Notes under the pieces: generated by a model
Told to the model about the DNA's origin: nothing
The model's database searches: none
Seen by the model: only the letters and a program-made list of their open reading frames with translations
Source: Escherichia coli
GTDB lineage: Bacteria; Pseudomonadota; Gammaproteobacteria; Enterobacterales; Enterobacteriaceae
Assembly: GCF_001677475.2 (NCBI RefSeq)
Contig: NZ_CP015229.1
Strand: one strand, 5' to 3'
Length of the DNA stretch: 64,000 nucleotides
Position numbers and translations under genes: made by a program
Shown here: one piece after another, positions 38,822-62,855 of the stretch
Layout of the letters: each line of letters begins with the position of its first letter
Position numbering within the stretch: position 1 is the first letter of the stretch

Positions 38822-39880
38822 ATGCGGGTATTGCTTCGACCTGTTCTGGTACCGGAACTCGGACTGGTTATCGTTAAGCCAGGCCGTGAATCCATGCAGG
38901 TATTCCATAACGGCAGAGTACTGGTGGAACCGGAACCGAAAAGTATGCGCGGTCTGCCGTCCGGAGTCGTTCCTGCCGTTCGCCAGCCGCTGGAGGAGGA
39001 TAAATCATTACTGCCGTTTTTCAGTAACGCACGGGTGATTCGTGCTGCTGGTGGTGCTGGTGCATTGTCTGACTGGCTGTTGCGCCATATTAAATCCTGC
39101 CAGTGGCCACACGGCGATTATCACCACAGTGAAACCGTCATTCACCGTTATGGCGCTGGCGCGATGGTGTTGTGCTGGCACTGCGACAACCAGTTGCGTG
39201 ACCAGACAGCCGAATCACTCGAGCAACTTGCTCATCAAAACCTGTCAGCATGGATGATTGACGTCATCCGTCACGCAATGAATGGCACACAGGAGCGGGA
39301 ATTATCGCTGGCTGAATTATCCTGGTGGGCAGTCTGCAATCAGGTGGCGGACGCGCTACCGGAGACAGTATTACGTCGTTCTCTGAGGTTACGTGCGGAA
39401 AAAATCCGCTCGGTGTATCGCGAAAGCGACATCGTACCGGGAGAGCAGACCGCCACCAGCATACTAAAGCAGCGCACAAAAAATCTTGCGCCGTTGCCTC
39501 ACTCTCATCAGCAACAGAACCCGCCACAGGAAAAGACGGTGGTCAGCATTGCCGTTGATCCGGAGTCACCGGCTCAGTATCTCCAGCGCCAGAAACCACA
39601 ACGGGAAGAGATGCCCGTATACACGCGCTGGGTAAAAACGCAGAAATGCATGACGTGCGGTAATCAGGCAGATGATCCGCATCACATCATTGGTCATGGA
39701 CTGGGAGGGATGGGAACAAAGGCTGATGATTTGTTTGTTATTCCGCTGTGCCGTAAATGTCATAACGAACTGCACGCCGGGGTAAAAGATTTTGAAGAAA
39801 AACACGGCAGCCAGCTGTTGTTGCTGATTCGTTTTTTAATGCACGCGAGAAATTCGGGTGTCCTGAAGTGGAAAGCATGA
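38822..39880 (+). CDS. DUF968/YdfU-like protein with HNH-like C-terminus
   Basis: 352 aa with C-terminal CGNQADDPHHIIGHG...CRKCHNELH. Confidence 0.7.
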   Translation: MRVLLRPVLVPELGLVIVKPGRESMQVFHNGRVLVEPEPKSMRGLPSGVVPAVRQPLEEDKSLLPFFSNARVIRAAGGAGALSDWLLRHIKSCQWPHGDYHHSETVIHRYGAGAMVLCWHCDNQLRDQTAESLEQLAHQNLSAWMIDVIRHAMNGTQERELSLAELSWWAVCNQVADALPETVLRRSLRLRAEKIRSVYRESDIVPGEQTATSILKQRTKNLAPLPHSHQQQNPPQEKTVVSIAVDPESPAQYLQRQKPQREEMPVYTRWVKTQKCMTCGNQADDPHHIIGHGLGGMGTKADDLFVIPLCRKCHNELHAGVKDFEEKHGSQLLLLIRFLMHARNSGVLKWKA

Positions 39881-44707: not shown

Positions 44708-45058
44708 ATGCCATCACGAATCCCACGCGCCTGCCGTAAGCGTGGATGTGCAGGTACAACCACAGACAGTTCTGGTTACTGCGATAAACATCGTGGCGAA
44801 GGATGGGTACAGCATCAACGCGGACTGAGCCGCCACCAGCGTGGCTATGGCTCGAAATGGGATGCCATACGTGCGCGCATACTGAAGCGTGATAATCATC
44901 TGTGTCAGAACTGCCTGCGCAATGGGAGAGCCGTTGAAGCCAGAACTGTGGACCACATCATTCCGAAAGCTCATGGTGGCACGGATGCAGACAGTAACCT
45001 GCAGAGTCTGTGCTGGCCCTGTCATAAAGCAAAAACAGCGCGCGAACGCATCAATTGA
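44708..45058 (+). CDS. HNH endonuclease (packaging-associated)
   Basis: 116 aa with DHIIPKAHGG...N...CWPCHKAKT. It lies directly upstream of terS. Confidence 0.85.
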   Translation: MPSRIPRACRKRGCAGTTTDSSGYCDKHRGEGWVQHQRGLSRHQRGYGSKWDAIRARILKRDNHLCQNCLRNGRAVEARTVDHIIPKAHGGTDADSNLQSLCWPCHKAKTARERIN

Positions 45059-45206
45059 TAACAGTTCCCATCTGTAGGGGAGGGGCGGGTCAAATCTCTG
45101 CAACCCTGGCTGCTCAGTACCGCCGCCTGACCCTTCTTCACATCGCCGCAGGTTCGAAAACTTTTTTTTGGAAATGTGAACAAACGATTGATAGGTAAGG
45201 CCGATT

Positions 45207-45689
45207 ATGTCAGGACCTCCGAAAACCCCGCCACGCCTGCATTTGATACGAGGCAACCCCTCAAAGCGCCCCGTTAAAGACCACAAAAAAACCGCTAAAA
45301 AGGATGAAAAAGGTCTTCCTAAAATTCCGCAGCATTTAGGGGCTCAGGGGAAGTACTGGTTCAGGCGAATGGCGGAAGAGCTGAATGCGGAAGGGATCAT
45401 TTCTCAGCTTGATGCGCGTGCACTCGAGTTGCTGGTGGAAGCCTACACCGAATATCGGCATCACTGCGAAACACTCGATGTTGAGGGGTATACCTACCGC
45501 ACGGAAACGCAGAGCGGTGATGTACTGATTAAGGCGCACCCCGCGGCGGCAATGAAAGCGGATGCCTGGAAGCGGATCCGGGCAATGCTTGCAGAGTTTG
45601 GTATGTCACCGGCAAGCCGGGCTAAAGTAAATATCGCCGGACCGGATGATGTTGATCCGCTGGCGGAGCTTTTAAAAGCGAGAGACTGA
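45207..45689 (+). CDS. terS: terminase small subunit (P27-type)
   Basis: 160 aa, upstream of and overlapping the terL start. It is homologous in its C-terminal half to the satellite TerS. Confidence 0.8.
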   Translation: MSGPPKTPPRLHLIRGNPSKRPVKDHKKTAKKDEKGLPKIPQHLGAQGKYWFRRMAEELNAEGIISQLDARALELLVEAYTEYRHHCETLDVEGYTYRTETQSGDVLIKAHPAAAMKADAWKRIRAMLAEFGMSPASRAKVNIAGPDDVDPLAELLKARD

Positions 45690-46716
45690 TGGCAAAAGTG
45701 GCTGACGGGATCCGCTACGCCGAACGTGTTGTTGCAGGAGAAATTGTTGCTGGCGAATTTGTCCGCCTGGCCTGCCAGCGTTTTCTTGATGATCTGAAGT
45801 ACGGCGAAGAGCGGGGGATTTATTTCAGTGAACCCCGTGCGCAGCACATCCTGAATTTCTACAAATTTGTGCCTCATGTAAAAGGGGCGCTGGCAGGCCA
45901 GCCCATTGAGTTGATGGACTGGCATGTATTTATTCTCATTAATATTTTTGGTTTTGTCATTCCGCTGGTCAATGAAGAGACCGGGGAAGTTGTCATGCGC
46001 AGCGATGGCAGTGGACGTCCGGTGATGGTGCGCCGGTTCCGGACGGCGTACAACGAAGTCGCTCGTAAAAACGCAAAATCAACTCTGTCATCGGGTATCG
46101 GCCTGTATATGACGGGGGCAGATGGTGAAGGCGGAGCTGAGGTGTATTCAGCCGCAACCACGCGTGACCAGGCCAGAATCGTGTTTGAAGACGCCAAAAA
46201 TATGGTCAGAAAAGCCCGGTCGACACTCGGGCGGTTGTTTGATTTCAACAAGCTGGCGATTTACCAGGAGCAGAGCGCATCAAAATTTGAACCGCTTTCT
46301 TCGGATGCAAACAACCTAGACGGTCTGAACATCCACTGCGCCATTATTGATGAGCTGCATGCACATAAAACCCGCGACGTGTGGGACGTTCTGGAAACGG
46401 CAACCGGTGCCCGTCTGCAGTCCCTGTTATTTGGTATCACCACGGCGGGCTTTAACAAGGAAGGGATTTGTTACGAGCAACGCGATTACGCCATCAAGGT
46501 ATTGCGAGGCTATAACAGCGACGTGGAGGGCGCGGTAAAAGACGACTCCTACTTTGCGATTATTTACACGCTCGATGAGGGAGATGATCCGTTTGATGAA
46601 ACGGTCTGGCAGAAAGCGAATCCGGGCCTGGGCATCTGTAAACGCTGGGATGATCTGCGTCGTCTGGCGAAAAAAGCGAAGGAGCAGGTCTCGGCGCGGG
46701 TGAATTTTTTCACGAA
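45689..46716 (+). pseudogene. terL: prophage terminase large subunit, 5' (ATPase) fragment, interrupted by satellite
   Basis: The fragment aligns with the satellite TerL up to ...RVNFFTK. The frame then reads 55 unrelated codons of island DNA. Confidence 0.88.
46710..46716. repeat. satellite attL core TCACGAA
   Basis: The same 7-mer occurs at 62119-62125, with 12/14 identity when extended (AATTTTTTCACGAA vs AATATTCTCACGAA). Confidence 0.75.
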
Positions 46717-46845
46717 GAAAGTAACATCACGCCGTAACAACAGTGCAGTCTGTCCTGATTTTTTTAGTAACCAAATGAAAGAAAAAGATTTTTTCTTGTT
46801 CGTCGTTTTTGTTTTTTCTGGATGGTTCTGGCTGTTTTCATCATT

Positions 46846-46868
46846 TGTGTATTGCACTGTGTATTGCA
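46846..46868 (+). repeat. tandem TGTGTATTGCA x2 (putative integrase arm-type sites, left end)
   Basis: Copies lie at 46846-46856 and 46858-46868. A similar pair, GTGTATTGC x2, lies at 62023-62043 with the same 12-nt register. Confidence 0.6.
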
Positions 46869-46887
46869 AAAACGGGTTATAAATCAC

Positions 46888-48111
46888 ATGGCGCTAAACA
46901 AACTGAGCGATAAAAAACTTCGTTCCCTGCTTGGACGCAGGAGTGAGAGACAGGAAACCATCGCTGATGGTAACGGGCTTTCGGTACGGGTCAGTAAATA
47001 CGGATGTGTTAGTTTTGTTTTCTTTTACAGACTGGCGGGAAGGGGAACCGCGCCCATCTGGCTGACACTTGGAAAATATCCTGATCTGAGTCTCAAATCA
47101 GCGAGAGAGATGCGCGATCAGTGTCGAACCTGGCTTGCGGAGGGCAGAGATCCACGGATTCAGATAAAAATTGAACGGGAAGCCACCTTGCAACCTGTTA
47201 CCGTTCGTGAGGCACTTGAATACTGGCTTGATAATTATGCAATGGATAAGCGTAGGGGAGCAGAACATATCAGGCAGTGCTTTGGTAAACATATTTATCC
47301 GGTGATTGGTCATGTACCACTTAGTGATTGCTCTATATCTATGTGGATTAAGTGTTTTGACAAAATAAAAAAAGTAGCACCTGTACAGGCCGGAGCTTTG
47401 TTGCGTATATCAAAACAGGCGCTTAAATTTTGTAGGGTAAGAAAATACGCGATTAGTCATGAAATTGATGATCTTGAGGTCTGTGATGTGGGAAAAAAGT
47501 CTGCGCGAAGAAGCAGGGTTTTAACAGATGATGAAATCAGAGATTTATGGCGAAGTATTAATACTGATTATGACAATCACGAATTATCATATGAAAACCG
47601 AATTATTTTACGTTTCCTGGTAGTTTTTGGTTGCCGACTGTCAGAAGTATTACTGTCGTCCTGGGGAGAGTGGGATTTTGATAAGAAATTATGGCGCGTT
47701 CCCGCTGAACATAGCAAAAATGGCAGGGAAATAATCAGACCGATTCCTGATGGCATGTTTAACTGGTTAGTTACGTTAAAAAAAATAACAGGTAACAAAG
47801 AAAATGTGATTGGGTTTGATATGCGTCAGTGTACGGCAAGCGTAACTATCGGTAAGACATGGAAAAGGATGAAACACTCGGAGAAATGGACGGCGCATGA
47901 TATGCGAAGAGTGTTTGCCACAAAACTAAGTGATCATGGTTTTGAACATAATGTGGTTGAACAGTTGCTTGGGCACACATTAGGCGGTGTTGCCGGGGTT
48001 TATAACAGAAGCCAGTATATGGACAGAAAAAAAGAAGCTATGAACTGGTGGTACGACTATCTGAATAAGCAAATTAGTGGTGACGGTAATGATTCAAATA
48101 GTTACGCGTGA
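46888..48111 (+). CDS. int: P4-type tyrosine integrase of the satellite
   Basis: 407 aa from MALNKLSDKKLRSLLG. The C-terminal catalytic region reads GCRLSEVL...HDMRRVFATKL...LGHTLGGVAGVYNR. Confidence 0.88.
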   Translation: MALNKLSDKKLRSLLGRRSERQETIADGNGLSVRVSKYGCVSFVFFYRLAGRGTAPIWLTLGKYPDLSLKSAREMRDQCRTWLAEGRDPRIQIKIEREATLQPVTVREALEYWLDNYAMDKRRGAEHIRQCFGKHIYPVIGHVPLSDCSISMWIKCFDKIKKVAPVQAGALLRISKQALKFCRVRKYAISHEIDDLEVCDVGKKSARRSRVLTDDEIRDLWRSINTDYDNHELSYENRIILRFLVVFGCRLSEVLLSSWGEWDFDKKLWRVPAEHSKNGREIIRPIPDGMFNWLVTLKKITGNKENVIGFDMRQCTASVTIGKTWKRMKHSEKWTAHDMRRVFATKLSDHGFEHNVVEQLLGHTLGGVAGVYNRSQYMDRKKEAMNWWYDYLNKQISGDGNDSNSYA

Positions 48112-48310
48112 AGAACTTGAAAATGATAAAACAATCGACAGGATGATTAAGGAAGATGAATGTGCATGGTTAACCGCTCTTGGCAGGAGACACAGATCGT
48201 TACTTGAAAAGGAAGGAAAATTTCCACGAAAAATATGTATTGGTCCACAAACAAAAGTCTGGCGCTTATCTGAGGTGCTGGAATGGGTAAAAGGTGAATG
48301 GAAACCCTGA
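48089..48310 (+). CDS. alpA: AlpA-family HTH regulator/excisionase 1
   Basis: RMIKEDECAWLTALGRRHRSLLEKEGKFPRKICIGPQTKVWRLSEVLEWV fits the AlpA pattern. The start is uncertain (48077, 48089 or 48143). Confidence 0.7.
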   Translation: MIQIVTREELENDKTIDRMIKEDECAWLTALGRRHRSLLEKEGKFPRKICIGPQTKVWRLSEVLEWVKGEWKP

Positions 48311-48373
48311 GCTAAATTAAATGAGATATAATCAACCCGTCTTTTGGCGGGTTTTTTTATAGGTGATATTTTT

Positions 48374-48652
48374 ATGCAAAAATTTATTTATCCTACACCC
48401 GAAGAACGCATTCAGATTCTGAAAGATCATGGCGAACCGTATGATCGCCGTATACGCGAACATGAGTGTGCCAATCGTACCGGGCTTTCAAGAAGCAGAC
48501 GTTGGGTACTTGAACAGGAGGGAGCATTTCCTGCTCGTGCTCATTTAGGGAAAGTGTCTGTTTCCTGGTTGCTCTCTGATGTGCTCTGGTGGGTTATGCA
48601 TCCGCCAGGAGTAAAGGAAGTAAACAGCCCATACAAAAACGCCAATAAGTAA
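48374..48652 (+). CDS. AlpA-family HTH regulator 2
   Basis: 92 aa with IREHECANRTGLSRSRRWVLEQEGAFPARAHLGKVSVSWLLSDVLWWV. Confidence 0.7.
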   Translation: MQKFIYPTPEERIQILKDHGEPYDRRIREHECANRTGLSRSRRWVLEQEGAFPARAHLGKVSVSWLLSDVLWWVMHPPGVKEVNSPYKNANK

Positions 48653-48662
48653 TTACCGACAA

Positions 48663-48690
48663 CCCCGCACCACGCAATGCGGGGTTTTTT
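48663..48690 (+). terminator. rho-independent terminator
   Basis: CCCCGCA-CCACGCAA-TGCGGGG-T6. Confidence 0.8.
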
Positions 48691-48709
48691 GTATGTGAGG
48701 TAGAAAGTG

Positions 48710-49303
48710 ATGAATAAAAATATTGCCGTGACGGGCAAGGGTGACGCACGTCATGTGAAAAAATTCTGTGATATTCGTGATCTGGTCGTTCTGCGCTTTG
48801 ATAGTGTGAACGTTCGCGTGGTGTATCTGAACGGCGATCCGTGGTTTGTTGGCGCTGATGTGTGTGCGGCGCTGGAAATTAGCAACGTTACCGATGCTGT
48901 TTCAGTTCTGGATAACGATGAGGTAATGACCCTAGCTTTAACCGAGGGTCATTCAGGTAAGCGTGGTGGTGCCAGAAGTTGGAATGTTGTATCAGAATCA
49001 GGTTTTTACAAGTTGATCGCCAGAAGTCGCAAAGCTGTTAATCCTGGCACGTTCGCCCATCGTTTCAGTAATTGGGTATTCAGAAATGTGATACCGGGTA
49101 TCAGAAAAACGGGGGCTTATGGTATCCCGTGGGGCGCATTACAGGATTTTTCCCGCCGCAAAGAGCAATATCAGGTAAGTGCCAGCGAGAAGGGGAGGGA
49201 GCTACAGGCATGTAAGCGCAAAAAGCGTGAGCTAGAGGAAGAAGAAAAAAGGCTGATACGTGAATATCAGCCTGAGTTTTACTTTGGTGAGCGTATTCAG
49301 TAA
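48710..49303 (+). CDS. BRO-N domain (antirepressor-like) protein
   Basis: 197 aa with VRVVYLNGDPWFVGADVCAALEISN...SESGFYKLIARSRKA...FSNWVFRNVIPGIRKTGAY. Confidence 0.75.
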   Translation: MNKNIAVTGKGDARHVKKFCDIRDLVVLRFDSVNVRVVYLNGDPWFVGADVCAALEISNVTDAVSVLDNDEVMTLALTEGHSGKRGGARSWNVVSESGFYKLIARSRKAVNPGTFAHRFSNWVFRNVIPGIRKTGAYGIPWGALQDFSRRKEQYQVSASEKGRELQACKRKKRELEEEEKRLIREYQPEFYFGERIQ

Positions 49304-49461
49304 CCACACGCGGTGCTGATTATACGGTACATCGTGTTAACCGAGAAGCTACCCACCAGCAAGGCAAAATCTTCTGCTAAAAAATGACATATGGCCAGTC
49401 GTCTGGAAAGCATGAAATTTTACAAAAATGGAAAATGAAGATTTTTATTGTGCTGGTGGGT

Positions 49462-49492
49462 AAAAACAAAAAGCGCCCCGTTGCCGGAGCGC
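49462..49492 (-). terminator. minus-strand rho-independent terminator
   Basis: The minus strand reads GCGCTCCG-GCAA-CGGGGCGC followed by TTTTTGTTTTT. Confidence 0.75.
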
Positions 49493-49588
49493 CCTTGCGA
49501 ACAATTAACCTACTGCGCAAAAAAATGAATCTGTGCAGGGGGATTATATCAACCGTGTGACGAAGCGCCACAATTGCCGGATAACAGG

Positions 49589-49617
49589 CAAAGAAAAGGC
49601 CACCCGCTACGGTGGCC
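49589..49617 (-). terminator. minus-strand terminator/attenuator
   Basis: The minus strand reads GGCCACC-GTAGCG-GGTGGCC followed by TTTTCTTTG. Confidence 0.6.
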
Positions 49618-55608: not shown

Positions 55609-56754
55609 ATGAAGAAATTAATCGAACTCCGCCAGCAAAAAACCGCCCTGAAAAACCAGATGCGATCCCTGCTGGAAAAAGCCGACAGTGAAAACCGCAG
55701 CCTGAACGATGACGAAGGCAAACAGTTTGATGAACTGCGTGCAAAAGCCGATTCCCTCGACACAGAAATCTCCCGTCTTGAAGCTGTTGCGGATGAAGAA
55801 CGTAACCAGCCAGGTGTTTGCGTCGAAGAGAAAATTACCAAAGACGAACTGCGCTCTTACATTCTGACCGGGGAAACCCGCAACCTGTCCGGCAGTGTTC
55901 CGGCTGATGGTGGTTATACGGTTATCCCGGAACTGAACAGAGAAATTATGCGTCAGCTTTCTGATGAATCGGTGATGCGTAAAATCTGTACTGTTAAAAC
56001 CATTCACAGCAATGAATTTAAGCAACTGGTTTCTGCCGGGGGCGCGGTCGTTGAACACGGTGAAGAAGGCACTACACGTAACCAGACGGCAACCCCAAAA
56101 CTGAATGAAGTCAGTATCCGCCTGTATCCGATCTACGCTTACCCGAAAACCACTCAGGAAATTATCGATTTTTCCGAAGTCGATATTATGGGCTGGTTAT
56201 CTTCTGAAATTGGCGACACTTTCGTTGATACCGAAGAAACGGATCTGGTTTCTGGTGATGGCGAGAAAAAAGCTAAAGGTTTCCTGGCTTTTCCGCGCAC
56301 TGAGGATAACGACAAAACCCGTCCTTTCGGTACGCTCCAGACGAAAAAAGTTACTGGCAGTCTTAGCGCCGACATGCTGATTGACCTGAAATTTACGCTG
56401 CGCAATAAGTACCGCAAAAAAGCTGTATGGGTGATGAACTCAAATACAGCCGCCTCCGCACAAAAACTGAAAAATGCCACTGGTGATTACATCTGGCGCG
56501 ATCGTTTACAGGCTGGTGATCCTGATTCTCTGCTGGGGCTTCCGGTTGAATATCTGGAATTTATGCCGGACGGTGTGATTGCAGTAGGTGACTTTAAGCG
56601 CGGTTATTTCATCGTTGACCATGAAACCGGTACGCGTACCCGTCCGGATTTCAGCGAACCTGGATTCATTAACATCTATACCCAGAAATATCTGGGCGGT
56701 GGTGTGGTGGATTCGAACGCCATCAAGATTCTGGAAATTCAGGCTGGCAAGTAA
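55609..56754 (+). CDS. HK97-family major capsid protein (with N-terminal delta/scaffold domain)
   Basis: 381 aa with an N-terminal coiled coil and then a capsid fold. The gene order capsid-protease-portal supports the call. Confidence 0.85.
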   Translation: MKKLIELRQQKTALKNQMRSLLEKADSENRSLNDDEGKQFDELRAKADSLDTEISRLEAVADEERNQPGVCVEEKITKDELRSYILTGETRNLSGSVPADGGYTVIPELNREIMRQLSDESVMRKICTVKTIHSNEFKQLVSAGGAVVEHGEEGTTRNQTATPKLNEVSIRLYPIYAYPKTTQEIIDFSEVDIMGWLSSEIGDTFVDTEETDLVSGDGEKKAKGFLAFPRTEDNDKTRPFGTLQTKKVTGSLSADMLIDLKFTLRNKYRKKAVWVMNSNTAASAQKLKNATGDYIWRDRLQAGDPDSLLGLPVEYLEFMPDGVIAVGDFKRGYFIVDHETGTRTRPDFSEPGFINIYTQKYLGGGVVDSNAIKILEIQAGK

Positions 56755-56760
56755 TGAGCA

Positions 56761-56785
56761 AAGGGGGCTTCGGCCTCCTTTTTCA
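56761..56785 (+). terminator. hairpin plus T-run after capsid gene (attenuator)
   Basis: AAGGGGGC-TTCG-GCCTCCTT followed by TTT. Confidence 0.55.
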
Positions 56786-56803
56786 GCTTTATGGAGTACA
56801 CCG

Positions 56804-57364
56804 ATGAAAAACACCGATTTTGAAATCCGTACATCTGAACTGACCGCCAGCGATAAAAAACTGGTGGGTTATGCCGTTCGCTGGAACAGCCTTTCAGAAA
56901 TTATTTGGGACGAATTCCGCGAACAGTTCACGCCGGGGGCTTTTGCTGACTATCTGGCGGCGGGTAATGATGTGCGCTGCCTGTATGAGCATGACTATAC
57001 CCGACTGCTGGGGCGCACCAAATCCGGAACACTGGTACTGACTGAGGACAACACCGGGCTACGTTTTGAACTGACACCGCCTGATACCCAGCTTGGAAAA
57101 GATGTGCTTACGCTGGTGGAGCGTGGCGACATTACAGGAATGAGCTTTGGCTTTCGCGCATTATGCGAAGAGTGGAATATCGCGCAAAAACCGTATCTGC
57201 GCACTGTTACCGCCGCAGAACTCCGTGAAATCACGATAACGTCGATGCCTGCTTATCCCGAATCTGGCGTGGAGATTGCCCACCGTTCGTTGTTTGCACA
57301 GCACCCTGAATTACGCCCGGCAGGAAATAATCGTCATCGCTGGGCTGAACTGGCGGGGTTGTGA
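56804..57364 (+). CDS. HK97-family prohead protease
   Basis: 186 aa from MKNTDFEIRTSELTASDKKLVGYAVRWNS...YEHD...GMSFGF. Confidence 0.85.
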   Translation: MKNTDFEIRTSELTASDKKLVGYAVRWNSLSEIIWDEFREQFTPGAFADYLAAGNDVRCLYEHDYTRLLGRTKSGTLVLTEDNTGLRFELTPPDTQLGKDVLTLVERGDITGMSFGFRALCEEWNIAQKPYLRTVTAAELREITITSMPAYPESGVEIAHRSLFAQHPELRPAGNNRHRWAELAGL

Positions 57365-57365
57365 T

Positions 57366-58580
57366 ATGTGGTGGCCTTTTAGTCGTAAAAAAAGCGATCT
57401 GCGTAACCTGTCCATTGATGATTTTCTGGCGCTGTCCGGCGTACCGAATACCGGATCCGGAGAATATGTTTCTGCCGGGACGGCTGAATCATTGCCTGCT
57501 GTGATGAACGCGGTTTCTGTCATCGCTGAGGCGGTGGCCACGATGCCGTGTTATCTGTATCTGGTACGCAATGATAAGGGCAGGGAGGCGCGGGAGTGGC
57601 TGGACAGTCATCCGGTCGATATTCTGCTGAATGAGCAGCCTAATTCGTGCCAGACACCTTACCAGTTTAAACGCACAATGATGCGTCACTGCCTGCTGAA
57701 CGGTAACGCCTATGCGGTTATTGAGTGGGGGCGGGACGGTCAGCCAAAATCACTTCATCCTTATGCGCCGGGGTGTGTTGTACCGGAACGCACTGGCGCG
57801 CACAAATACCGCTATACCATCACCGAACCCTATACAGGAACGGTGCGCACGTATTTACAGGAAGAAGTCCTGCATCTCCGCTATGCCTCGGATGATGGCT
57901 TTCTGGGACGTTCCCCCGTCACGATTTGCCGTGAGGCGCTGGGGCTTGGCCTTGCTCAACAGCGTCACGGAGCCAGCATTATGAAAGATGGCATGATGGC
58001 GGCAGGGATTATCACGTCAGGCGAATGGCTGGACGGTGTGAAAGGTAAACAGGCATTAGACGCCCTGGAACGCTACAAGGGGGCGAAAAATGCCGGAAAA
58101 ACGCCAATCCTTGAAGGGGGCATGGATTACAAGCAACTGGGGATGAGTAACCAGGATGCGGAATGGCTGGCCTCCCGTCGCTTCTCCATTGAAGACATCG
58201 CCCGGATGTTCAACGTGTCGCCGATTTTTCTTCAGGAATACAGCAACAGCACCTACAGCAATTTCAGTGAGGCAAGCCGCGCGTTTCTGACCATGACAAT
58301 GCGCCCATGGCTGGCGAACTTCGAACAGCAAATTAAGGCCGCTTTGCTGGTGGCTTCTCCCGTACCTGGTACCCGTTATCTGGTTGAGTTTGATTCAGCC
58401 GATTTACTGCGCGCTACTCCAACCGAGCGTTACGCCACGTATGAGAAAGGGATTAAGAACGGGATCATGAATCCGAACGAAGCCCGCGAACGTGAGGGGA
58501 TGCCGCCGCGTGAAGGTGGCGACGAATTCAGCCAGGCATGGAAGCAGACGGTGGAAATTAAAGGTGAAAAAGATGAGTGA
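57366..58580 (+). CDS. HK97-family portal protein
   Basis: 404 aa from MWWPFSRKKS. It is homologous to the prophage portal at 63049. Confidence 0.85.
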   Translation: MWWPFSRKKSDLRNLSIDDFLALSGVPNTGSGEYVSAGTAESLPAVMNAVSVIAEAVATMPCYLYLVRNDKGREAREWLDSHPVDILLNEQPNSCQTPYQFKRTMMRHCLLNGNAYAVIEWGRDGQPKSLHPYAPGCVVPERTGAHKYRYTITEPYTGTVRTYLQEEVLHLRYASDDGFLGRSPVTICREALGLGLAQQRHGASIMKDGMMAAGIITSGEWLDGVKGKQALDALERYKGAKNAGKTPILEGGMDYKQLGMSNQDAEWLASRRFSIEDIARMFNVSPIFLQEYSNSTYSNFSEASRAFLTMTMRPWLANFEQQIKAALLVASPVPGTRYLVEFDSADLLRATPTERYATYEKGIKNGIMNPNEAREREGMPPREGGDEFSQAWKQTVEIKGEKDE

Positions 58581-58872
58581 AGAAAAAATTACACCTGATG
58601 AAGTCAGGGCACATCTTCGCCTTGATGACTTTTCCGGAGAGGGCGAACTTCTGAAAATGTATACCGATGCGGCGCTGGAAGCCTGCCAGAAGCATATCGG
58701 GAAACGTTTTGAAGACGGCCTGGAATTTACCCCGGCAATACGTGTTGGTTGCCTGATGTACATTGCTTTCCTGTACGAGAACAGGGAAGCGGTTTCACCT
58801 GTGGAGCAGTCTGAACTGCCTATGGCTATTTCTGCGCTCTGGTCGGTTTATCGTGATGTGGGGGTGTACTGA
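58573..58872 (+). CDS. gp6-like head-tail connector
   Basis: 99 aa from MSEEKITPDEVRAHLRLDD. Confidence 0.7.
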   Translation: MSEEKITPDEVRAHLRLDDFSGEGELLKMYTDAALEACQKHIGKRFEDGLEFTPAIRVGCLMYIAFLYENREAVSPVEQSELPMAISALWSVYRDVGVY

Positions 58873-59312
58873 TGCCGTGGCAACCATTAAGGCGATGCAC
58901 TGAGCCGGGCTGTAATAAGCGCGTGAAGTCCGGCAAGTGTGAAGAGCACAGGCGGGCTGCATGGCGTGCAGAGGATGCCAGACGGGGACACCGCCGCGCG
59001 CGCGGGTATTCCCGACAGTGGGACAAATACCGCGCCCTGTACCTGAGCAAAAACCCGTTATGCGTGCGTTGTCTGGCTAAGGGGATTTATACGCCAGCTC
59101 TTGTGGTGGATCACATCATTCCCATCAATGGCGGCGGTGATGTTCTCTTCTGGCCTGAGTGGAACCACCAGGCATTGTGCCAGACGTGCCACAACCGTAA
59201 GACGACACGGGAAGACCCAGCCACGAAAGCGAACCGTAAGGCGGGCATGTATCGCGAGCAGGAAGAACGGGCGGCACACCGTAACGACTGGATGTATGGC
59301 GATGATGACTGA
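58872..59312 (+). CDS. HNH endonuclease (packaging-associated)
   Basis: 146 aa with CVRC...DHIIPINGGG...CQTCHNRKT. Confidence 0.85.
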   Translation: MPWQPLRRCTEPGCNKRVKSGKCEEHRRAAWRAEDARRGHRRARGYSRQWDKYRALYLSKNPLCVRCLAKGIYTPALVVDHIIPINGGGDVLFWPEWNHQALCQTCHNRKTTREDPATKANRKAGMYREQEERAAHRNDWMYGDDD

Positions 59313-59600
59313 ACATGAGCAAAACAGGCTGATACGTGGACTGATAAGGCAACGTGACTTATGGAAGACACAGGAGACAGGGCACAAAGCCAACAGGACA
59401 GGGCGCACAGAACGCACCACAGCGAAGCGATTAACCGACCGTGACCGCGAGGTCATGGAATGTTTTCGCAATCGCTGGTGAGGCTGTCAGAGGGGGTGGG
59501 GGAGGTTTTCAGGACGAAACCGTCCCTGCCGGACACCGACCGCCTCCTCAAATTTTTGTGCACGGTAATTTTTTTGAAAATAATTGGGCGAAAAAAGAAC

Positions 59601-59957
59601 ATGGCAAGACCACCAAAAGCCCCCGCTTACCTGGATGAAATCGCGGTCAGGCAGTGGAAGGAAAAATCGCGCCAGCTTTCCGTGCGGGAAGACCTTACCC
59701 CCGCCGACTGGAGCAATCTGGAACTGTATTGTGTTAACTACTCCATATACCGCAAAGCCGTCGAAGACCTTGCGACGCGCGGGTTCAGCATTGTTAACAG
59801 TCAGGGCAGCGAGAGCAGAAACCCCGCCCTGAGCGCAAAGGCTGACGCGGAAAGAATAATGATCAAAATGGCTTCTTTGCTGGGTTTTGACCCGGTAAGC
59901 CGCCGCAGAAATCCACCGGAAACAGAGGAAGAGGACGAGCTTGACCGCCTGGCATGA
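59601..59957 (+). CDS. terS: terminase small subunit (P27-type)
   Basis: 118 aa from MARPPKAPAYLDEIAVRQW. Confidence 0.8.
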   Translation: MARPPKAPAYLDEIAVRQWKEKSRQLSVREDLTPADWSNLELYCVNYSIYRKAVEDLATRGFSIVNSQGSESRNPALSAKADAERIMIKMASLLGFDPVSRRRNPPETEEEDELDRLA

Positions 59958-61602
59958 GTACGCAGAAGGCGTAAAAAACGGCAAAATTACGGCCTGTAAA
60001 CGACTGAAACAGGCCGTTAAACGGTATTTTTCTGACCTTGAAAACCCCCTTTACACGTTCGAGCCGGAGGTCGTGGAGCGGTTTATTGCCTTTTCCAGGG
60101 TGTGTCCGCACGTAAAAGGCGCAATGCGCGGTAGCCCCATTGAGCTGGAGCCGTGGCAGCAGTTCGCCTTTGCGTGCATCCTGGGCTTTAAGGTTAAGGC
60201 CACCGGACGGCGCAAATACACCAGCGCATTCATTGAAGTACCGCGTAAAAATGCCAAATCCACGGTCGCCGCTATCCTGGCTAACTGGTTTCTGGTTATG
60301 GAAAACGGGCAGCAGGATATTTACACCGCCGCCGTGAGTCGTGATCAGGCGCGGATCGTGTTTGATGATGCGCGTCAGATGTGCCTTTTATCCCGACCGT
60401 TACGAAAGCGGGTAAATATTCAGGCACACAAGGTGATACACCCGAAAACCAACAGCCTGTTAAAGCCACTGGCAGCAAAAGCGGCAACCATTGAAGGTAC
60501 AAACCCGAGTCTTGCTATTGTGGATGAATATCACCTGCACCCTGACAACGGGGTTTATTCCGCGCTTGAACTGGGAATGGGGGCGCGTCCGGAGGGGTTA
60601 TTATTTGCCATCACCACATCGGGGAGCAACGTTGTTTCAGCCTGTAAACAACACTACGACTATTGCTGCCAGATACTGGATGGTGAAGAGGTGAACGAAT
60701 CCATGTTCGTGCTGATTTACGAGCTGGATGATGAAAGCGAGGTTGACGATCCGGCGATGTGGATAAAGGCGAATCCCAATATCGATGTTTCCGTCGATCG
60801 TGAAAAACTGGCCTCAACCATCCAGAAAGCGCGGGGTATTCCGTCGCAGTGGGTGGAGATGCTCACCAAGCGATTCAATATCTGGTGTCAGGGGGCTACG
60901 CCGTGGATGGGTAACGGTGCATGGGCGGAGTGCGCCGGAACGTTCGCGGAGGCGGATTTATACGGGCAGGAGTGCTACGCGGGGCTGGACTTATCATCAA
61001 CCAGCGATATTTCCAGCGTGTGCTATGCCTTTCCGGTCGGTAAAAAGATTATGCTGGTTTCCCGTCACTATCTGCCGGAATTTCAGCTACAGAACCCCGC
61101 CAATAAAAACCGCGCCATCTATCGCCAGTGGGTAAAGGCGGGCTGGATACGCACAACACCGGGTGACTGCATTGATTATGACCGTATCCGTGATGACATC
61201 ATGGCGGATGCAGAGAATTTCAATATCAGGCTGGTGGGCTTCGATACATGGAACGCCACGCACCTGAGGACGCAGCTACAGGGCGCAGGATTTGAGGTGG
61301 AGCCGTTCCCGCAAACATACCTTCGTTTCAGTCCGGCGGCGAAATCGTTCGAAGTTTTTGTTAACCGGAAGGTGATTGTGCATCGTGGTGATCCGGTGCT
61401 GGCCTGGTCAATGAGTAATGTTGTGATGCAGAGTGACGCGAACGCCAATATCAAGCCGAACAAGAAAAAATCATCCAACAAGATAGACCCGAGCGTTGCG
61501 GCGCTGATGGCGTTTGGCACATTCCAGGCAGAGCATGAGGAATTTGCATTCGATATGAGCGACAGCCACAAAGAGCGGCTTGCGGCGTTTGATGGTGTGT
61601 AA
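59941..61602 (+). CDS. terL: terminase large subunit (intact, satellite copy)
   Basis: 553 aa, colinear with both fragments of the prophage terL. Confidence 0.88.
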   Translation: MTAWHEYAEGVKNGKITACKRLKQAVKRYFSDLENPLYTFEPEVVERFIAFSRVCPHVKGAMRGSPIELEPWQQFAFACILGFKVKATGRRKYTSAFIEVPRKNAKSTVAAILANWFLVMENGQQDIYTAAVSRDQARIVFDDARQMCLLSRPLRKRVNIQAHKVIHPKTNSLLKPLAAKAATIEGTNPSLAIVDEYHLHPDNGVYSALELGMGARPEGLLFAITTSGSNVVSACKQHYDYCCQILDGEEVNESMFVLIYELDDESEVDDPAMWIKANPNIDVSVDREKLASTIQKARGIPSQWVEMLTKRFNIWCQGATPWMGNGAWAECAGTFAEADLYGQECYAGLDLSSTSDISSVCYAFPVGKKIMLVSRHYLPEFQLQNPANKNRAIYRQWVKAGWIRTTPGDCIDYDRIRDDIMADAENFNIRLVGFDTWNATHLRTQLQGAGFEVEPFPQTYLRFSPAAKSFEVFVNRKVIVHRGDPVLAWSMSNVVMQSDANANIKPNKKKSSNKIDPSVAALMAFGTFQAEHEEFAFDMSDSHKERLAAFDGV

Positions 61603-61682
61603 CGGAATGGATGAGAGAGGACAATGCTCATTTAATGGAATAAATTTTCAGTATTACCGGCACCCACTTTCAGGGATGTTTT

Positions 61683-61838
61683 TGCGGGTTATTTGAGGGG
61701 TGTTTGCGGGTTATTTTGAATGTCTTGCGGGTTACATTCTGGCTGATATTTAAATACGTTGTTTTTTTAACGTATTGATATTAAAGAGTAAAAGATAATT
61801 AGCACGCGAAGATAACCCGCTAACCCGCATAACCCGCA
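61683..61838. repeat. TGCGGGTTA array: 3 direct (21-22 nt phasing) plus 3 inverted tandem copies around an AT-rich palindrome
   Basis: Direct copies lie at 61683, 61705 and 61726. Inverted TAACCCGC copies lie at 61813, 61821 and 61830. The palindrome AATACGTT-N8-AACGTATT lies at 61752-61776. Confidence 0.85.
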
Positions 61839-62022
61839 CTGTTTTGTATATATATACGAAAAATTGCATTCAGGGGGGATCGAAATTTCTACTGCCTCTT
61901 ATCTCTTTGAGTGCTCACCTCGTCAGATTGTTACACACAAGAAATAAAAAATGCTTCGCGATGGTAGGTCGAATCACTGTATCAAAAAACGGTGTGTATC
62001 AGCATTAAAACAATACAGATAC

Positions 62023-62043
62023 GTGTATTGCGCTGTGTATTGC
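62023..62043 (+). repeat. tandem GTGTATTGC x2 (putative integrase arm sites, right end)
   Basis: This pair matches the left-end pair at 46846-46868. Confidence 0.6.
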
Positions 62044-62118
62044 TCGATGATTTATAAAGACTGTTTTTTCATGTTAAACGATTGATATACAGACGATTTT
62101 AAAAAGCTTGAAATATTC

Positions 62119-62125
62119 TCACGAA
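62119..62125. repeat. satellite attR core TCACGAA
   Basis: See the attL core. Confidence 0.75.
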
Positions 62126-62855
62126 ACACATGAATGTGTGGGTCACTGCCGAATCGGCCTGGATGGACATGATTAAGTGGGAGAAGTGCGAATACATCGC
62201 TCCACAGCATGAGCTGAAAACGTATCCCATGTGGGTCGGCGTCGACCTTGCACATAAGATTGATATCTGTGCGGCGGCAAAACTCTGGCGAACGGATAAC
62301 GGGCATGTTCATGCCGATTTTAAATTCTGGCTTCCGGAAGGGCGACTGGAACGGTGTTCACGGCAGCAGGCAGAACTTTACCGGAAGTGGGCGGAGATGG
62401 ATAAGCTCATCCTGACGGATGGTGATGTTATCGATCATGCTCAGATAAAAAGTGACTTACTGGAATGGATTGGTGGTGAAAACCTCAGGGAACTGGGATT
62501 TGACCCGTGGAGCGCGATGCAGTTCAGCCTGGCACTGGCTGAAGAAGGGATACCGCTGGTGGAGGTTCCGCAGACGGTCCGCAATCTGTCAGAGGCCATG
62601 AAGGAAACGGAATCACTGGTCTATGCCGGACGTTTCCACCACAGCAATCACCCGGTCATGAACTGGATGATGTCTAACGTTACGGTGAAACCGGACAAAA
62701 ACGACAATATCTTCCCGAATAAATCCACGCCGGAAGCCAAAATCGACGGCCCTGTTGCGATGTTTACAGCAATGAGCCGGATGCTGGTCAATGGCGGTGA
62801 ACCGGAGCCGGATCTGTCTGAACACCTGATCAGTGTTGGTATCCGCTCGCTTTAA
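62126..62855 (+). pseudogene. terL: prophage terminase large subunit, 3' (nuclease) fragment
   Basis: HMNVWVTAESAWMDMIKWEKC... aligns with satellite TerL FNIWCQGATPWMGNGAWAEC. The fragment is in frame with the 5' fragment when joined at the core. Confidence 0.88.

What the first reader, a model, noticed from the sequence alone, without database searches (positions are those of the whole stretch)
59313..59600. Candidate cos regions of satellite and prophage are colinear but diverged, and a small basic ORF sits in the satellite copy
**Seen in sequence.**
- Both HNH-terS spacers share an architecture. The prophage spacer is 45059-45206 and the satellite spacer is 59313-59600.
- The first element is a G-run block: GTAGGGGAGGGGCGGG in the prophage and CAGAGGGGGTGGGGGAGG in the satellite.
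- The second is a CCGCCGCCT or CCGACCGCCTCC block. The third is T7-8GAAA just before terS.
- The sequences differ at many positions.
- The satellite spacer is 140 nt longer. It contains a 59-62-codon basic ORF (59296-59481, MTEHEQNRLIRGLIRQRDLWK...) that overlaps the HNH stop.

**Established knowledge.** HK97-type phages cut cos with TerL assisted by the adjacent HNH protein and TerS.

**Inference.** The divergence would let each terminase recognise only its own DNA. The extra ORF may be a packaging specificity or interference factor.
Basis: partly seen in the sequence, partly recalled or inferred. Interest (0 to 1): 0.5.

Follow-up and report, generated by a model that had tools for sequence, protein, structure and literature searches.

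The report
Satellite and prophage cos sites, small gene
The two spacers are the DNA-cutting (cos) sites of an HK97-like prophage and of a capsid-forming satellite sitting inside it, and the small ORF is a real, conserved satellite gene that appears to be the one already shown in the model element EcCIEDL933 to aid transfer, so the finding is sound but mostly known biology.

Summary
Both HNH-terS spacers carry the same three blocks in the same order, and phage HK97 has those blocks around its experimentally defined cos cut.

The satellite is a 15.4-kb capsid-forming PICI (cf-PICI) related to EcCIEDL933. Its non-coding cos region is 59482-59600. I predict a 10-nt 3' overhang at 59537-59546 (CGACCGCCTC). 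This rests on colinearity with HK97, on a footprint across 205 distinct cf-PICI cos regions, and on a linear 15.5-kb metagenomic cf-PICI contig whose two ends lie exactly 10 nt apart at this spot.

The small ORF (most likely 59305-59481, 58 aa, pI about 11) is a real gene:
- dN/dS is 0.07-0.47.
- Indels are in frame.
- It matches PHROG 3173.
- Relatives occur only in Enterobacterales cf-PICI-like loci and never in a tailed phage.

By gene counting it is the homologue of EcCIEDL933 "hypothetical gene 1792". Mutating that gene severely lowered satellite transfer without affecting replication or helper titre. It therefore looks like an accessory packaging factor, not a helper-interference factor. 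It is also not the cos-specificity determinant, because ORF-less relatives keep the same cos blocks.

Novelty is low: a new member of a known kind.

The parts
44708..45058 (+). Prophage HNH endonuclease gene (116 aa)
   Evidence: Pfam HNH PF01844, E = 1.9e-16. 41% identical to the satellite HNH.
45059..45206 (+). Prophage cos region (HK97 type). It contains the G-run 45077-45089 plus TCAAATCT, the predicted 10-nt 3' overhang CGCCGCCTGA at 45121-45130, the predicted left end from 45131 (CCCTTCTTCACATCGCCGCAGG...), and T8 at 45162-45169.
   Evidence: Colinear with the HK97 ends, z = 5.6. The blocks are conserved in mEp235, Klebsiella phage 1 LV-2017 and phage Pm34. The phage Fraca record has a misjoin within about 2 nt of the homologous left end. 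Coordinates were checked. The cut positions are inferred.
45207..45689 (+). Prophage terS (160 aa, Terminase_4 / P27 family)
   Evidence: Pfam PF05119, E = 2.3e-25.
45689..46710 (+). 5' part of the prophage terL, interrupted by the satellite. The 3' part resumes at 62112.
   Evidence: blastn against the intact relative vB_EcoM-606R7. The Pfam TerL_nuclease profile is split at position 64.
58872..59312 (+). Satellite HNH endonuclease gene (146 aa)
   Evidence: Pfam HNH, E = 8.8e-10. PHROG 144.
59305..59481 (+). Small basic protein gene (58 aa from the conserved ATG; upstream in-frame ATGs at 59296 and 59302). It overlaps the HNH stop by 8 nt. It is the homologue of the EcCIEDL933 small hypothetical gene (inferred gene 1792) and a member of PHROG 3173.
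   Evidence: (dN/dS 0.07-0.47). RefSeq annotates it in relatives.
59482..59600 (+). Satellite cos region (non-coding, 119 nt)
   Evidence: Footprint across 205 non-redundant cf-PICI cos regions. Colinear with HK97 cos.
59492..59505 (+). Upstream G-run block GGGGGTGGGGGAGG. The core GGGGTGGGGG at 59493-59502 is nearly invariant across the family.
   Evidence: Nine of the ten core columns are at least 95% conserved. HK97 and the prophage family have the counterpart G-run about 31-37 nt upstream of their CCGCC block.
59537..59546 (+). Predicted cosN: 10-nt 3' cohesive end CGACCGCCTC. The duplex right end would be ...CGGACAC at 59536, and the left end would start at C 59547.
   Evidence: The ends of the linear contig IMGVR_UViG_3300022664_000095 lie exactly 10 nt apart in 17 of 17 integrated relatives. 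This is the homologous position of the HK97 10-nt 3' overhang. The virion-derived vB_KppS-Ant record lacks 69 nt around it. Contig L402 ends 2 nt past it. This is inferred, not measured for this element.
59547..59583 (+). Family-specific conserved block downstream of the cut, CTCAAATTTTTGTGCACGGTAATTTTTTTGAAAATAA. It includes T7 at 59569-59575 and is a candidate TerS-binding or bending (cosB-like) element.
   Evidence: It is the longest highly conserved stretch in the family. HK97 and the prophage family carry different sequences at this position. The function is inferred.
59601..59957 (+). Satellite terS (118 aa, Terminase_4 / P27 family)
   Evidence: Pfam E = 2e-23. 27% identical to the prophage TerS.
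59941..61602 (+). Satellite terL (553 aa)
   Evidence: Pfam TerL_ATPase plus TerL_nuclease. 32% identical to the prophage-type TerL.

Best explanation
**Setting (shown).** The window holds an HK97-like prophage and, integrated inside that prophage's terL gene, a 15.4-kb capsid-forming phage-inducible chromosomal island (cf-PICI) of the EcCIEDL933 type. Each element has its own HNH-TerS-TerL packaging set.

**The cos sites (location shown by comparison; cut positions inferred).**
- The spacer upstream of each terS is that element's HK97-type cos site.
- In the satellite the terminase, helped by HNH, most likely makes a staggered cut. This would leave a 10-nt 3' overhang, CGACCGCCTC (59537-59546).
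- A near-invariant G-run lies about 31 nt upstream of the overhang.
- A satellite-family-specific block, CTCAAATTTTTRYGCACGG-N3-T7GAAAATAA, lies immediately downstream. This is where TerS would be expected to bind.
- The prophage is predicted to cut at the homologous place (overhang CGCCGCCTGA, 45121-45130). It has a different downstream block.
- Together with 27-41% identity between the packaging proteins, this gives a physical basis for each machine packaging only its own DNA (inferred).

**The small ORF (gene shown; role inferred).**
- It is a genuine gene encoding a 46-63-aa basic, helical protein. It is probably translationally coupled to HNH.
- It is an accessory component of the satellite packaging module. 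It raises the efficiency of satellite packaging or transfer but is not essential, and several lineages have lost it.
- The most likely role is as a helper of cos cleavage or packaging, acting with HNH/TerS/TerL at the adjacent cos DNA.
For: **cos sites**
- The HK97 record ends ...GGGCAGGGGGGGGGATCAAATC...GACCGCCGCCAAA and starts GTTTGAATTT...T7... just before terS. HK97 has 10-nt 3' overhangs (figure legend, PhageTerm left 2047 / right 2036).
- The order and spacing of the blocks match. From ATCAAA to ACCGCC is about 30 nt in HK97 and about 31 nt in the Xenorhabdus-type cf-PICI consensus (the window satellite has TTTTCAGGAC in place of ATCAAA). From ACCGCC to T7 is 35 nt in HK97 and about 33 nt in cf-PICIs.
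- In 205 non-redundant cf-PICI cos regions from Enterobacterales and Aeromonas, most columns of these blocks are at least 95% conserved: GGGGTGGGGG, GAC, CAC, CTC..ATTTTT, GCACGG and the T run.
- IMG/VR contig 3300022664_000095 (15,518 bp) has no terminal overlap. Its gene order is terS-terL-int...capsid-portal-HNH-small ORF.
  - It ends ...AAGGCAC and begins CTCAAATTTTTACGC.
  - In all 17 integrated relatives sharing the right-end 12-mer, the left end follows exactly 10 nt later.
  - Library end repair removes 3' overhangs, and assemblers place cos ends at contig limits.
- The virion-derived record vB_KppS-Ant lacks 69 nt centred on the same spot, compared with the K. pneumoniae ATCC 13883 chromosome. 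Contig L402 ends 2 nt beyond the predicted cut.

**Small ORF**
- Pairwise dN/dS is 0.07-0.47 with pS up to 0.7. Invariant residues use up to 7 synonymous codons. Indels are in frame.
- The profile search found 157 protein clusters, all named members from Enterobacterales. The exhaustive search found 27 representative clusters.
- PHROG 3173 matches at E = 2.4e-29.
- The ORF is intact in 150 of 229 distinct loci.
- pI is 10-11.3. The AlphaFold model has two helices.
- The EcCIEDL933 capsid is gene 1786, and the small hypothetical gene is the sixth gene after it, giving 1792. The 1792 mutant replicated normally, transferred far less, left helper titre unchanged and was complemented in trans.
Against: - No termini were measured for this element or this prophage. 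The exact cut rests on one metagenomic contig, on homology with HK97, and on two weaker assembly breaks.
- Equating the ORF with gene 1792 is an inference from gene counting. Figure 4A and the locus tags could not be read.
- The protein's biochemical role is unknown.
  - The model has pTM 0.37 and no compact fold.
  - It matches no Pfam family.
  - It has no distant homologue of known function.
- ORF-less relatives, such as most Xenorhabdus elements, have the same cos blocks and the same short TerS. The protein is therefore not needed for cos recognition as such.
- Pairwise similarity between the two spacers in the window is only modest (z about 3).
Confidence: 0.75

Rival explanations
1. The small protein is an interference factor of the Ppi or Rpp kind. 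It would bind the helper's TerS, HNH or TerL and so block or redirect helper packaging.
For: - It occurs only in satellites. Just 3 of 50,697 phage records carry it, and none is a true tailed phage.
- It is small and sits next to terS, as Ppi does in SaPIs (background described).
- A Klebsiella cf-PICI is reported to block its helper, phage P1.
Against: - EcCIEDL933 carries the ORF yet does not reduce the titres of its helpers HK106 and HK446.
- Helper transfer was unchanged in all packaging-module mutants.
- The inferred 1792 mutant loses satellite transfer, which a pure anti-helper factor would not cause.
- It has no sequence similarity to any Pfam family.
Confidence: 0.08
2. The small protein is a regulator or architectural DNA-binding protein rather than part of the cutting machine. 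Examples are a late-operon regulator, a factor ensuring terS-terL expression across cos, or an IHF-like bending protein at the G-run.
For: - It is strongly basic (net charge +3.5 to +5.7).
- It is predicted to have a helix, a basic linker and a second helix, with no compact fold.
- Its stop codon lies 10-20 nt upstream of the conserved G-run in all lineages.
- The phenotype is partial rather than null.
Against: - No helix-turn-helix, ribbon-helix-helix or other DNA-binding family match was found.
- ORF-less elements have the same G-run and the same operon layout.
- No promoter-like site lies between the ORF and terS on the + strand.
Confidence: 0.2
3. The ORF is not translated. Its conservation would reflect cis-acting cos sequence, such as extra terminase-binding sites upstream of the G-run.
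For: - The 3' end of the ORF directly abuts the cos G-run.
- The C-terminal peptide ...RDRELMECFRNR is the best-conserved part.
Against: - Conserved residues are encoded by many synonymous codons. L9 uses 7 codons, L13 uses 6, R46 uses 4, and N56, F54 and C53 each split roughly evenly between two.
- dN/dS is far below 1 while synonymous sites are close to saturation.
- All indels are multiples of three.
- The (inferred) 1792 mutant was complemented in trans from a plasmid.
Confidence: 0.02
4. The shared G-run / CCGCC / T-run layout is compositional coincidence, and the real packaging start sites lie elsewhere (pac or headful packaging, or cos in another spacer).
For: - Pairwise similarity of the two spacers is only z about 3.
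- G-runs and T-runs are simple sequences.
Against: - The HK97 termini lie at the homologous block.
- The family-wide footprint is stronger than in the flanking coding DNA.
- The ends of a linear unit-length contig fall 10 nt apart inside the spacer.
- cf-PICI DNA is reported to form concatemers through cohesive ends.
Confidence: 0.04

Closest known systems
Phage HK97 cos site and HNH (gp74)-assisted terminase
   Same: - The location is the same, between the HNH gene and terS.
- The three protein families are the same (HNH, Terminase_4-type TerS, TerL ATPase plus nuclease).
- The order and spacing of the G-run, CCGCC block and T-run are the same.
- The 10-nt 3' overhang is measured for HK97 and inferred here.
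   Different: - The sequence of the overhang differs, and so, above all, does the block just downstream of the cut.
- The proteins are only distantly related.
- HK97 has no homologue of the small basic protein. It has an unrelated, unannotated ORF in the same interval.
EcCIEDL933, the prototype capsid-forming PICI (Alqurainy et al.; preprint 10.1101/2022.09.08.507074)
   Same: - Gene order is the same from capsid to terL.
- The HNH-terS segment is 85% identical at the DNA level.
- A small ORF sits at the same place and is 80% identical at the protein level.
- The cos blocks are the same.
- Its packaging genes act only on the island, and its 'hypothetical gene 1792' mutant transfers poorly.
   Different: - The window element is integrated in a prophage terL gene rather than next to phoQ.
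- It uses a different integrase.
- It lacks the head-closure/adaptor gene.
- Its overhang is CGACCGCCTC rather than CGAACGCCTC.
Phage lambda cos (cosQ-cosN-cosB, with IHF as accessory protein)
   Same: - It has the same tripartite logic: a cut site flanked by an upstream element and by a downstream TerS-side element next to the small terminase gene.
- A small DNA-bending accessory protein improves cos use.
- This comparison rests on established knowledge and was not tested here.
   Different: - Lambda makes 12-nt 5' overhangs.
- It has no HNH partner.
- Its TerS family is different.
- Its accessory protein, IHF, is host-encoded.
SaPI Ppi and PICI Rpp (satellite proteins that bind helper TerS)
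   Same: They are small satellite-encoded proteins in or next to the packaging genes (background).
   Different: - They block or redirect helper packaging.
- Here the homologous element does not harm its helper, and loss of the gene harms the satellite itself.
- No sequence relation was detected.
Helper-embedded PICIs (HE-PICIs; PMC10111431)
   Same: The satellite is integrated inside a late gene (large terminase) of a prophage, with a short identity block at attL/attR and the integrase next to attL.
   Different: - The published founding example lacks terS and is presumed to use the helper's cos.
- This element carries its own complete head and packaging module and its own cos.

Membership tests
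HK97-type (HNH-dependent, 3'-cos) packaging site | The site lies between an HNH endonuclease gene and terS-terL of the HK97/P27 type. | tested here: met
   Pfam finds HNH, Terminase_4, TerL_ATPase and TerL_nuclease for both elements.
HK97-type (HNH-dependent, 3'-cos) packaging site | The sequence layout is colinear with the mapped HK97 cos (G-run, CCGCC cut block, T-run, with similar spacing). | tested here: met
   z = 5.6 for the prophage and z = 2.9 for the satellite against HK97.
HK97-type (HNH-dependent, 3'-cos) packaging site | Packaged DNA has fixed ends with a 10-nt 3' overhang at this site. | tested here: inconclusive
   The evidence is indirect. The ends of one linear metagenomic cf-PICI contig lie 10 nt apart, and two assembly breaks fall at or near the same spot. 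Nothing was measured for this element or for the prophage.
HK97-type (HNH-dependent, 3'-cos) packaging site | Cleavage requires TerL, TerS and the HNH protein. | not testable with these tools
   Genetic evidence exists only for the relative EcCIEDL933, where hnh, terS and terL mutants abolish transfer.
Capsid-forming PICI (cf-PICI) | Size is 10-18 kb, with integrase, AlpA and a replication module. | tested here: met
   The inserted block is about 46711-62111 (15.4 kb). It carries an integrase, Phage_AlpA, DUF4222, an AAA_25 replicase and SSB.
Capsid-forming PICI (cf-PICI) | The element has its own capsid, protease, portal, connector, HNH, terS and terL, and no tail or lysis genes. | tested here: met
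   No tail or lysis ORFs lie within the block. The adaptor (Phage_HCP) gene listed for other cf-PICIs is absent here.
Capsid-forming PICI (cf-PICI) | The element is induced by a helper phage and uses only the helper's tails. | not testable with these tools
   This was shown only for EcCIEDL933 and KpCIDSM30104.
PHROG 3173 / EcCIEDL933 small hypothetical protein (inferred gene 1792) | Sequence membership in the family. | tested here: met
   PHROG 3173 matches at E = 2.4e-29 over the full length. The protein is 80% identical to the EDL933 protein.
PHROG 3173 / EcCIEDL933 small hypothetical protein (inferred gene 1792) | Conserved position between HNH and cos/terS. | tested here: met
   The position holds in all 23 genome loci with a hit. 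The stop codon lies 116-130 nt upstream of terS wherever the spacer could be measured.
PHROG 3173 / EcCIEDL933 small hypothetical protein (inferred gene 1792) | The gene is required for efficient satellite transfer. | not testable with these tools
   This was published for gene 1792. Equating it with this ORF is inferred from capsid = gene 1786 and the RefSeq gene order.
Ppi/Rpp-type helper packaging interference proteins | The protein reduces helper phage packaging by binding helper TerS. | tested here: not met
   No test was run on this element. In the homologous system, helper titres were unaffected by the island and by its mutants. No sequence similarity was found.

The most novel reading that the evidence does not exclude
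The 46-63-aa basic protein (PHROG 3173) would be a previously unrecognised fourth protein component of HNH-type cos packaging machines, found only in satellites. It would bind the G-run side of cos, or the HNH/TerS complex, and raise the efficiency or fidelity of cos cleavage or of packaging termination on a 15-kb genome. This would help the satellite's diverged terminase work alongside a related helper terminase in the same cell.
Probability: 0.3. Interest if true: 0.5.

Novelty: new member of a known kind. Interest (0 to 1): 0.3.

Why it matters
- The work places the cos site of a widespread satellite family (cf-PICIs) at base resolution, including a predicted 10-nt 3' overhang. It also shows which cos blocks are shared with HK97-like helper-type phages and which are specific to the satellite family.
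- That is the information needed to design cos-swap experiments on packaging specificity, and to recognise packaged cf-PICI genomes in viromes.
- It links a poorly described gene with a published transfer phenotype to a defined protein family. The family is conserved, found only in satellites and repeatedly lost.
- None of this overturns current understanding. It refines a system described in 2022-2025.

Tried and rejected
**Identity of gene 1792**
- The preprint's supplements are not held.
- The journal version is not held.
- Locus-tag searches found nothing.
- Cluster member names carried no EDL933 tags.
- It was resolved only indirectly, through 'capsid = gene 1786'.

**Looking for more cos-ended contigs**
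- cf-PICI-sized Logan and NCBI contigs (L087, L088) do not end at cos and give no terminus information.
- Three further IMG/VR pattern scans gave no additional cos-ended contig.
- The metagenome scan gave only one contig end near the cut.

**RNA and DNA structure in the spacer**
- Rfam returned no match at E ≤ 1 in 58800-59800.
- The promoter/terminator scan found one terminator-like hairpin inside the ORF (59439-59458). The Klebsiella homologue lacks the complementary arm (sequence read), so I rejected it.
- Folding the spacer as single-stranded DNA pairs the G-run with the C-rich cut block, but z = -1.57 is not significant. The G-run is invariant while the C block varies, so there is no covariation.

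**Ideas about the small protein**
- Could it replace the basic N-terminal segment that the short satellite TerS lacks relative to the prophage TerS? I rejected this, because ORF-less relatives have the same short TerS.
- Is it a cos-specificity factor? I rejected this, because cos variants follow host lineage and not ORF presence.
- I did not run a fold search on the model. With pTM 0.37 and two isolated helices, the matches would be meaningless.
Full report
**1. Observation**

The gene boundaries that define the two spacers are correct.
- The prophage HNH gene (44708-45058) and terS (45207-45689) leave a 148-nt spacer.
- The satellite HNH gene (58872-59312) and terS (59601-59957) leave 288 nt.
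- The ORF 59296-59481 exists and overlaps the HNH stop.

There are two small corrections. In the prophage the T8 run is followed by GGAAA, not GAAA. The conserved start of the small ORF is the third ATG, at 59305.

Global alignment of the two non-coding spacers beats dinucleotide shuffles modestly (z = 3.05; 4 of 500 shuffles reach it). The prophage spacer aligns better with the HK97 cos region (z = 5.6), and the satellite spacer gives z = 2.9 against HK97.

**2. Context**

The window is E. coli. The prophage carries HNH, a Terminase_4 (P27-family) TerS and a TerL. Its HNH-terS segment is 99% identical to the induced phage vB_EcoM-606R7.

The satellite carries the following genes:
- integrase, AlpA, a Bro-N protein, DUF4222, an AAA_25 replicase and SSB;
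- capsid, S78 protease, portal and connector;
- HNH, the small ORF, TerS and TerL.

Its HNH-terS segment matches 514 of 5,426 complete E. coli genomes. One of these is EDL933, at 85% identity. There the region belongs to EcCIEDL933, the prototype capsid-forming PICI. RefSeq annotates the small ORF as a hypothetical protein in both relatives examined.

**3. The spacers are HK97-type cos sites**

*HK97 as reference.*
- The HK97 record ends ...GGGCAGGGGGGGGGATCAAATCTTCAAAACCTTTGCCCCAAATGACCGCCGCCAAA.
- It begins GTTTGAATTTAACGCTAACCCGATTTTTTTAGTTTTAAGG...ATG(terS).
That cut leaves 10-nt 3' overhangs (figure legend, PhageTerm left 2047 / right 2036).

*Prophage family.* The window prophage, mEp235, Klebsiella phage 1 LV-2017 and phage Pm34 share this layout: G-run plus TCAAA, about 25 variable nt, then GGAC CGCCGCCTRR CCTCTTTTCACATCGCCGCAGGTTAGAAAAC-T8-GG.

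*Satellite family.* A TerS-based scan of one genome per species returned 80 loci from Enterobacterales, Aeromonas, Orbaceae and Pasteurellaceae. Pattern scans of IMG/VR added more than 200.
- I aligned 205 non-redundant cos regions.
- Most columns of the blocks GGGGTGGGGG (59493-59502), GAC, CAC, CTC..ATTTTT, GCACGG and the T run are at least 95% conserved.
- The about 17 nt between the G-run block and the cut vary freely, as does part of the 10-nt cut block itself.

*Spacing.* From ATCAAA to ACCGCC is about 30 nt in HK97 and about 31 nt in the Xenorhabdus-type cf-PICI consensus; the window satellite has TTTTCAGGAC in place of ATCAAA. From ACCGCC to T7 is 35 nt in HK97 and about 33 nt in cf-PICIs.

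**4. Where the cut is**

The key evidence is IMG/VR contig 3300022664_000095 (15,518 bp).
- It is a complete cf-PICI in packaged orientation: left end, terS, terL, int, capsid, portal, HNH, small ORF, right end.
- It has no terminal overlap.
- It ends ...GGTTTTCAGGACAAAACCCAAGCCGCAAGGCAC and begins CTCAAATTTTTACGCACGG....
- In all 17 integrated relatives that share its last 12 nt, the left-end sequence follows exactly 10 nt later, for example after CACCCGCCCC.
- Library end repair removes 3' overhangs, and assemblers place cos ends at contig limits. This is therefore the signature expected of a 10-nt 3' cos end.
- It falls at the position homologous to the HK97 overhang. Compare HK97 GAC|CGCCGCCAAA|GTTTGAATTT with cf-PICI CAC|CACCCGCCCC|CTCAAATTTTT.

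Two weaker observations agree.
- The virion-derived record vB_KppS-Ant lacks 69 nt that straddle this point, compared with the K. pneumoniae ATCC 13883 chromosome.
- A metagenome contig (L402) ends 2 nt beyond the predicted top-strand cut.

Transferred to the window, this gives:

| Element | Duplex right end | Predicted overhang | Left end starts |
|---|---|---|---|
| Satellite | ...CGGACAC, 59536 | CGACCGCCTC, 59537-59546 | 59547 |
| Prophage | ...TCAGTAC, 45120 | CGCCGCCTGA, 45121-45130 | 45131 |

Coordinates were checked. The phage Fraca record shows a misjoin within about 2 nt of the homologous prophage-type left end. All of these cut positions are inferences, because no termini were measured for this window's elements.

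**5. Specificity**

Satellite and prophage proteins are 27% (TerS), 41% (HNH) and 32% (TerL) identical.

Both families share the G-run and the AC|C(G/A)CC start of the cut block. The roughly 37 nt just downstream of the cut are conserved within each family but unrelated between them. That makes this block the best candidate for the TerS recognition element (inference).

For EcCIEDL933 and its helper HK106, island packaging genes were needed only for island transfer and phage genes only for phage transfer. It is not demonstrated for this pair, nor assigned to particular bases.

**6. The small ORF is a real gene**

*Family.* A single-sequence search found only Escherichia relatives. A profile built from locus-derived homologues found 157 clusters. 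All named members are from Enterobacterales, all are 'hypothetical', and none has a Pfam domain. An exhaustive HMM search of 1.84 billion representatives found only 27 clusters and no relative of known function. The protein is a full-length member of PHROG 3173, function unknown.

*Coding signal.*
- Alignment shows a conserved N-terminal helix (E.E...L...L...R[ED].[FWY]), a variable basic linker with in-frame indels, and a conserved C-terminus R[DE]RE[LVI].ECFRNR followed by the stop.
- Pairwise dN/dS is 0.07-0.47, with synonymous divergence up to 0.7.
- Invariant residues use many synonymous codons. This rules out conservation caused by an overlapping DNA signal.

*Protein properties.* It is strongly basic (pI 10-11.3). 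The AlphaFold model has a confident N-terminal helix, a low-confidence linker and a short C-terminal helix, with no compact fold (pTM 0.37).

*Translation.* The conserved ATG overlaps the HNH stop (ATGACTGA), which suggests translational coupling (inference).

**7. Distribution of the small ORF**

- It lies between HNH and cos in 23 of the genome loci: Klebsiella, Enterobacter, Kosakonia, Kluyvera, Pantoea, Erwinia, Rahnella, Pectobacterium, Proteus, Providencia and some Xenorhabdus.
- It is intact in 150 of 229 distinct cos-upstream regions.
- It is absent from most Xenorhabdus/Photorhabdus elements and from the Aeromonas, Leclercia, Gilliamella and Pasteurellaceae loci.
- Citrobacter L008 keeps an internal-deletion remnant, and Photorhabdus L050 keeps a decayed pseudogene. 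The gene has therefore been lost repeatedly.
- ORF-less elements have the same cos blocks and the same 117-118-aa TerS.
- Among 50,697 phage records it occurs in only three: the satellite vB_KppS-Ant, a 1.6-kb fragment, and the extreme end of a 106-kb Klebsiella record.
- HK97 and the window prophage lack it.

**8. Link to published genetics**

The 2022 preprint mutated each gene of the EcCIEDL933 packaging module. Transfer was abolished in every case except 'hypothetical gene 1792', where it was severely reduced. Replication and helper titres were unaffected, and the mutants were complemented in trans.

The 2025 preprint states that the capsid is gene 1786. In the RefSeq order (capsid, protease, portal, head closure, connector, HNH, small hypothetical, terS, terL) the small ORF is the sixth gene after the capsid, which makes it 1792. 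It is also the only hypothetical gene in that run.

I could not read the figure or the locus tags to confirm this. In addition, EcCIEDL933 does not reduce helper titres.

**9. Verdict on mechanism**

The most likely picture is this. The satellite's cos is cut by its own TerL-HNH-TerS set, leaving a 10-nt 3' overhang at 59537-59546. The small basic protein is a non-essential accessory of that machinery. I consider three alternatives less likely:
- a helper-interference factor, because the helper is unaffected and the satellite itself suffers;
- the cos-specificity determinant, because the cos blocks are the same without it;
- an untranslated cis element, because of the codon evidence and the trans complementation.

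Its biochemical action remains unknown. It could be DNA bending at the G-run side of cos, a bridge between HNH and terminase, or a regulatory effect.

**10. Novelty**

The following are all published: cf-PICIs, their private HNH-TerS-TerL packaging, a phenotype for the small gene, and integration of PICIs into prophage late genes.

I found no paper in the searchable library that maps the cf-PICI cos cut or describes the small-protein family. The predicted cut, the family-wide footprint and the gene's distribution are therefore modest additions. This is a new member of a known kind.

Noticed in passing
window 46695-46725 (attL) and 62100-62135 (attR); inserted block about 46711-62111: The whole 15.4-kb satellite sits inside the prophage's terL gene. 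Comparison with the intact relative vB_EcoM-606R7 shows an 8-nt overlap at the junctions, and the shared core is TCACGAA. The prophage's own TerL is therefore split while the satellite is integrated. The left junction is present whole in 35 of 5,426 complete E. coli genomes. This matches the published 'helper-embedded PICI' configuration (PMC10111431), here for a capsid-forming element.
   Followed up: partly
window 61684-61837: Six copies of GCGGGTTA lie between the satellite terL and attR. Three are direct copies 21-22 nt apart (61684, 61706, 61727). Three are on the other strand, 8-9 nt apart (61813, 61821, 61830). No shuffle out of 100 reached the window's total of 7 copies. They could be integrase arm sites or iterons.
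   Followed up: partly
window 57276-58872 compared with L002 11370-11708: The window satellite goes straight from portal to the head-tail connector gene. It lacks the head-closure/adaptor (Phage_HCP) gene that EcCIEDL933 and the Klebsiella elements have. The close relative in strain TUM9757 lacks it too. Adaptor and connector are reported to set tail compatibility.
   Followed up: no
L003 (LR881103.1, vB_KppS-Ant), ends of the record; L007 2372-2500: This 16.5-kb 'phage' record is a cf-PICI. Its sequence lacks 69 nt of the cos region that are present in the K. pneumoniae ATCC 13883 chromosome. Its 765-aa gene after terL is annotated as a tape measure protein, and a 768-aa ORF occupies the same place in L087.
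   Followed up: partly
L004 1-135 and L346 540-665 (LR597645.1, phage Fraca): The record starts with about 125 nt of terL-internal coding sequence joined to the left cos end (CCTCTTTTCAC...). It ends with a second, intact copy of the cos region. This looks like an assembly misjoin at a physical end.
   Followed up: partly
PQ569648.1 (Klebsiella phage P12620-1), 105920-106503: A 106.5-kb phage record ends, one base after residue 49 of the small ORF, with a cf-PICI HNH/small-ORF segment. The record has a second matching place. This could be a chimeric assembly or a satellite carried by a large phage or plasmid.
   Followed up: no
L006 347-598 (HK97 39346-39597): HK97 has an unannotated ORF of about 67-83 codons between its HNH gene and cos. 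It overlaps the HNH stop and is unrelated to the satellite's small protein.
   Followed up: no
L050 about 2170-2500 (Photorhabdus temperata); L008 about 2330-2400 (Citrobacter amalonaticus): These are decay products of the small gene. L050 has a copy broken by a stop codon and a frameshift. L008 has an internal-deletion remnant (MSEQEHMSQRER...) running into the G-run.
   Followed up: partly
window 59492-59549: The G-run and the C-rich cut block are partly complementary and pair when the spacer is folded as single-stranded DNA. The fold is not better than shuffles (z = -1.57), and the two blocks do not covary across the family.
   Followed up: yes
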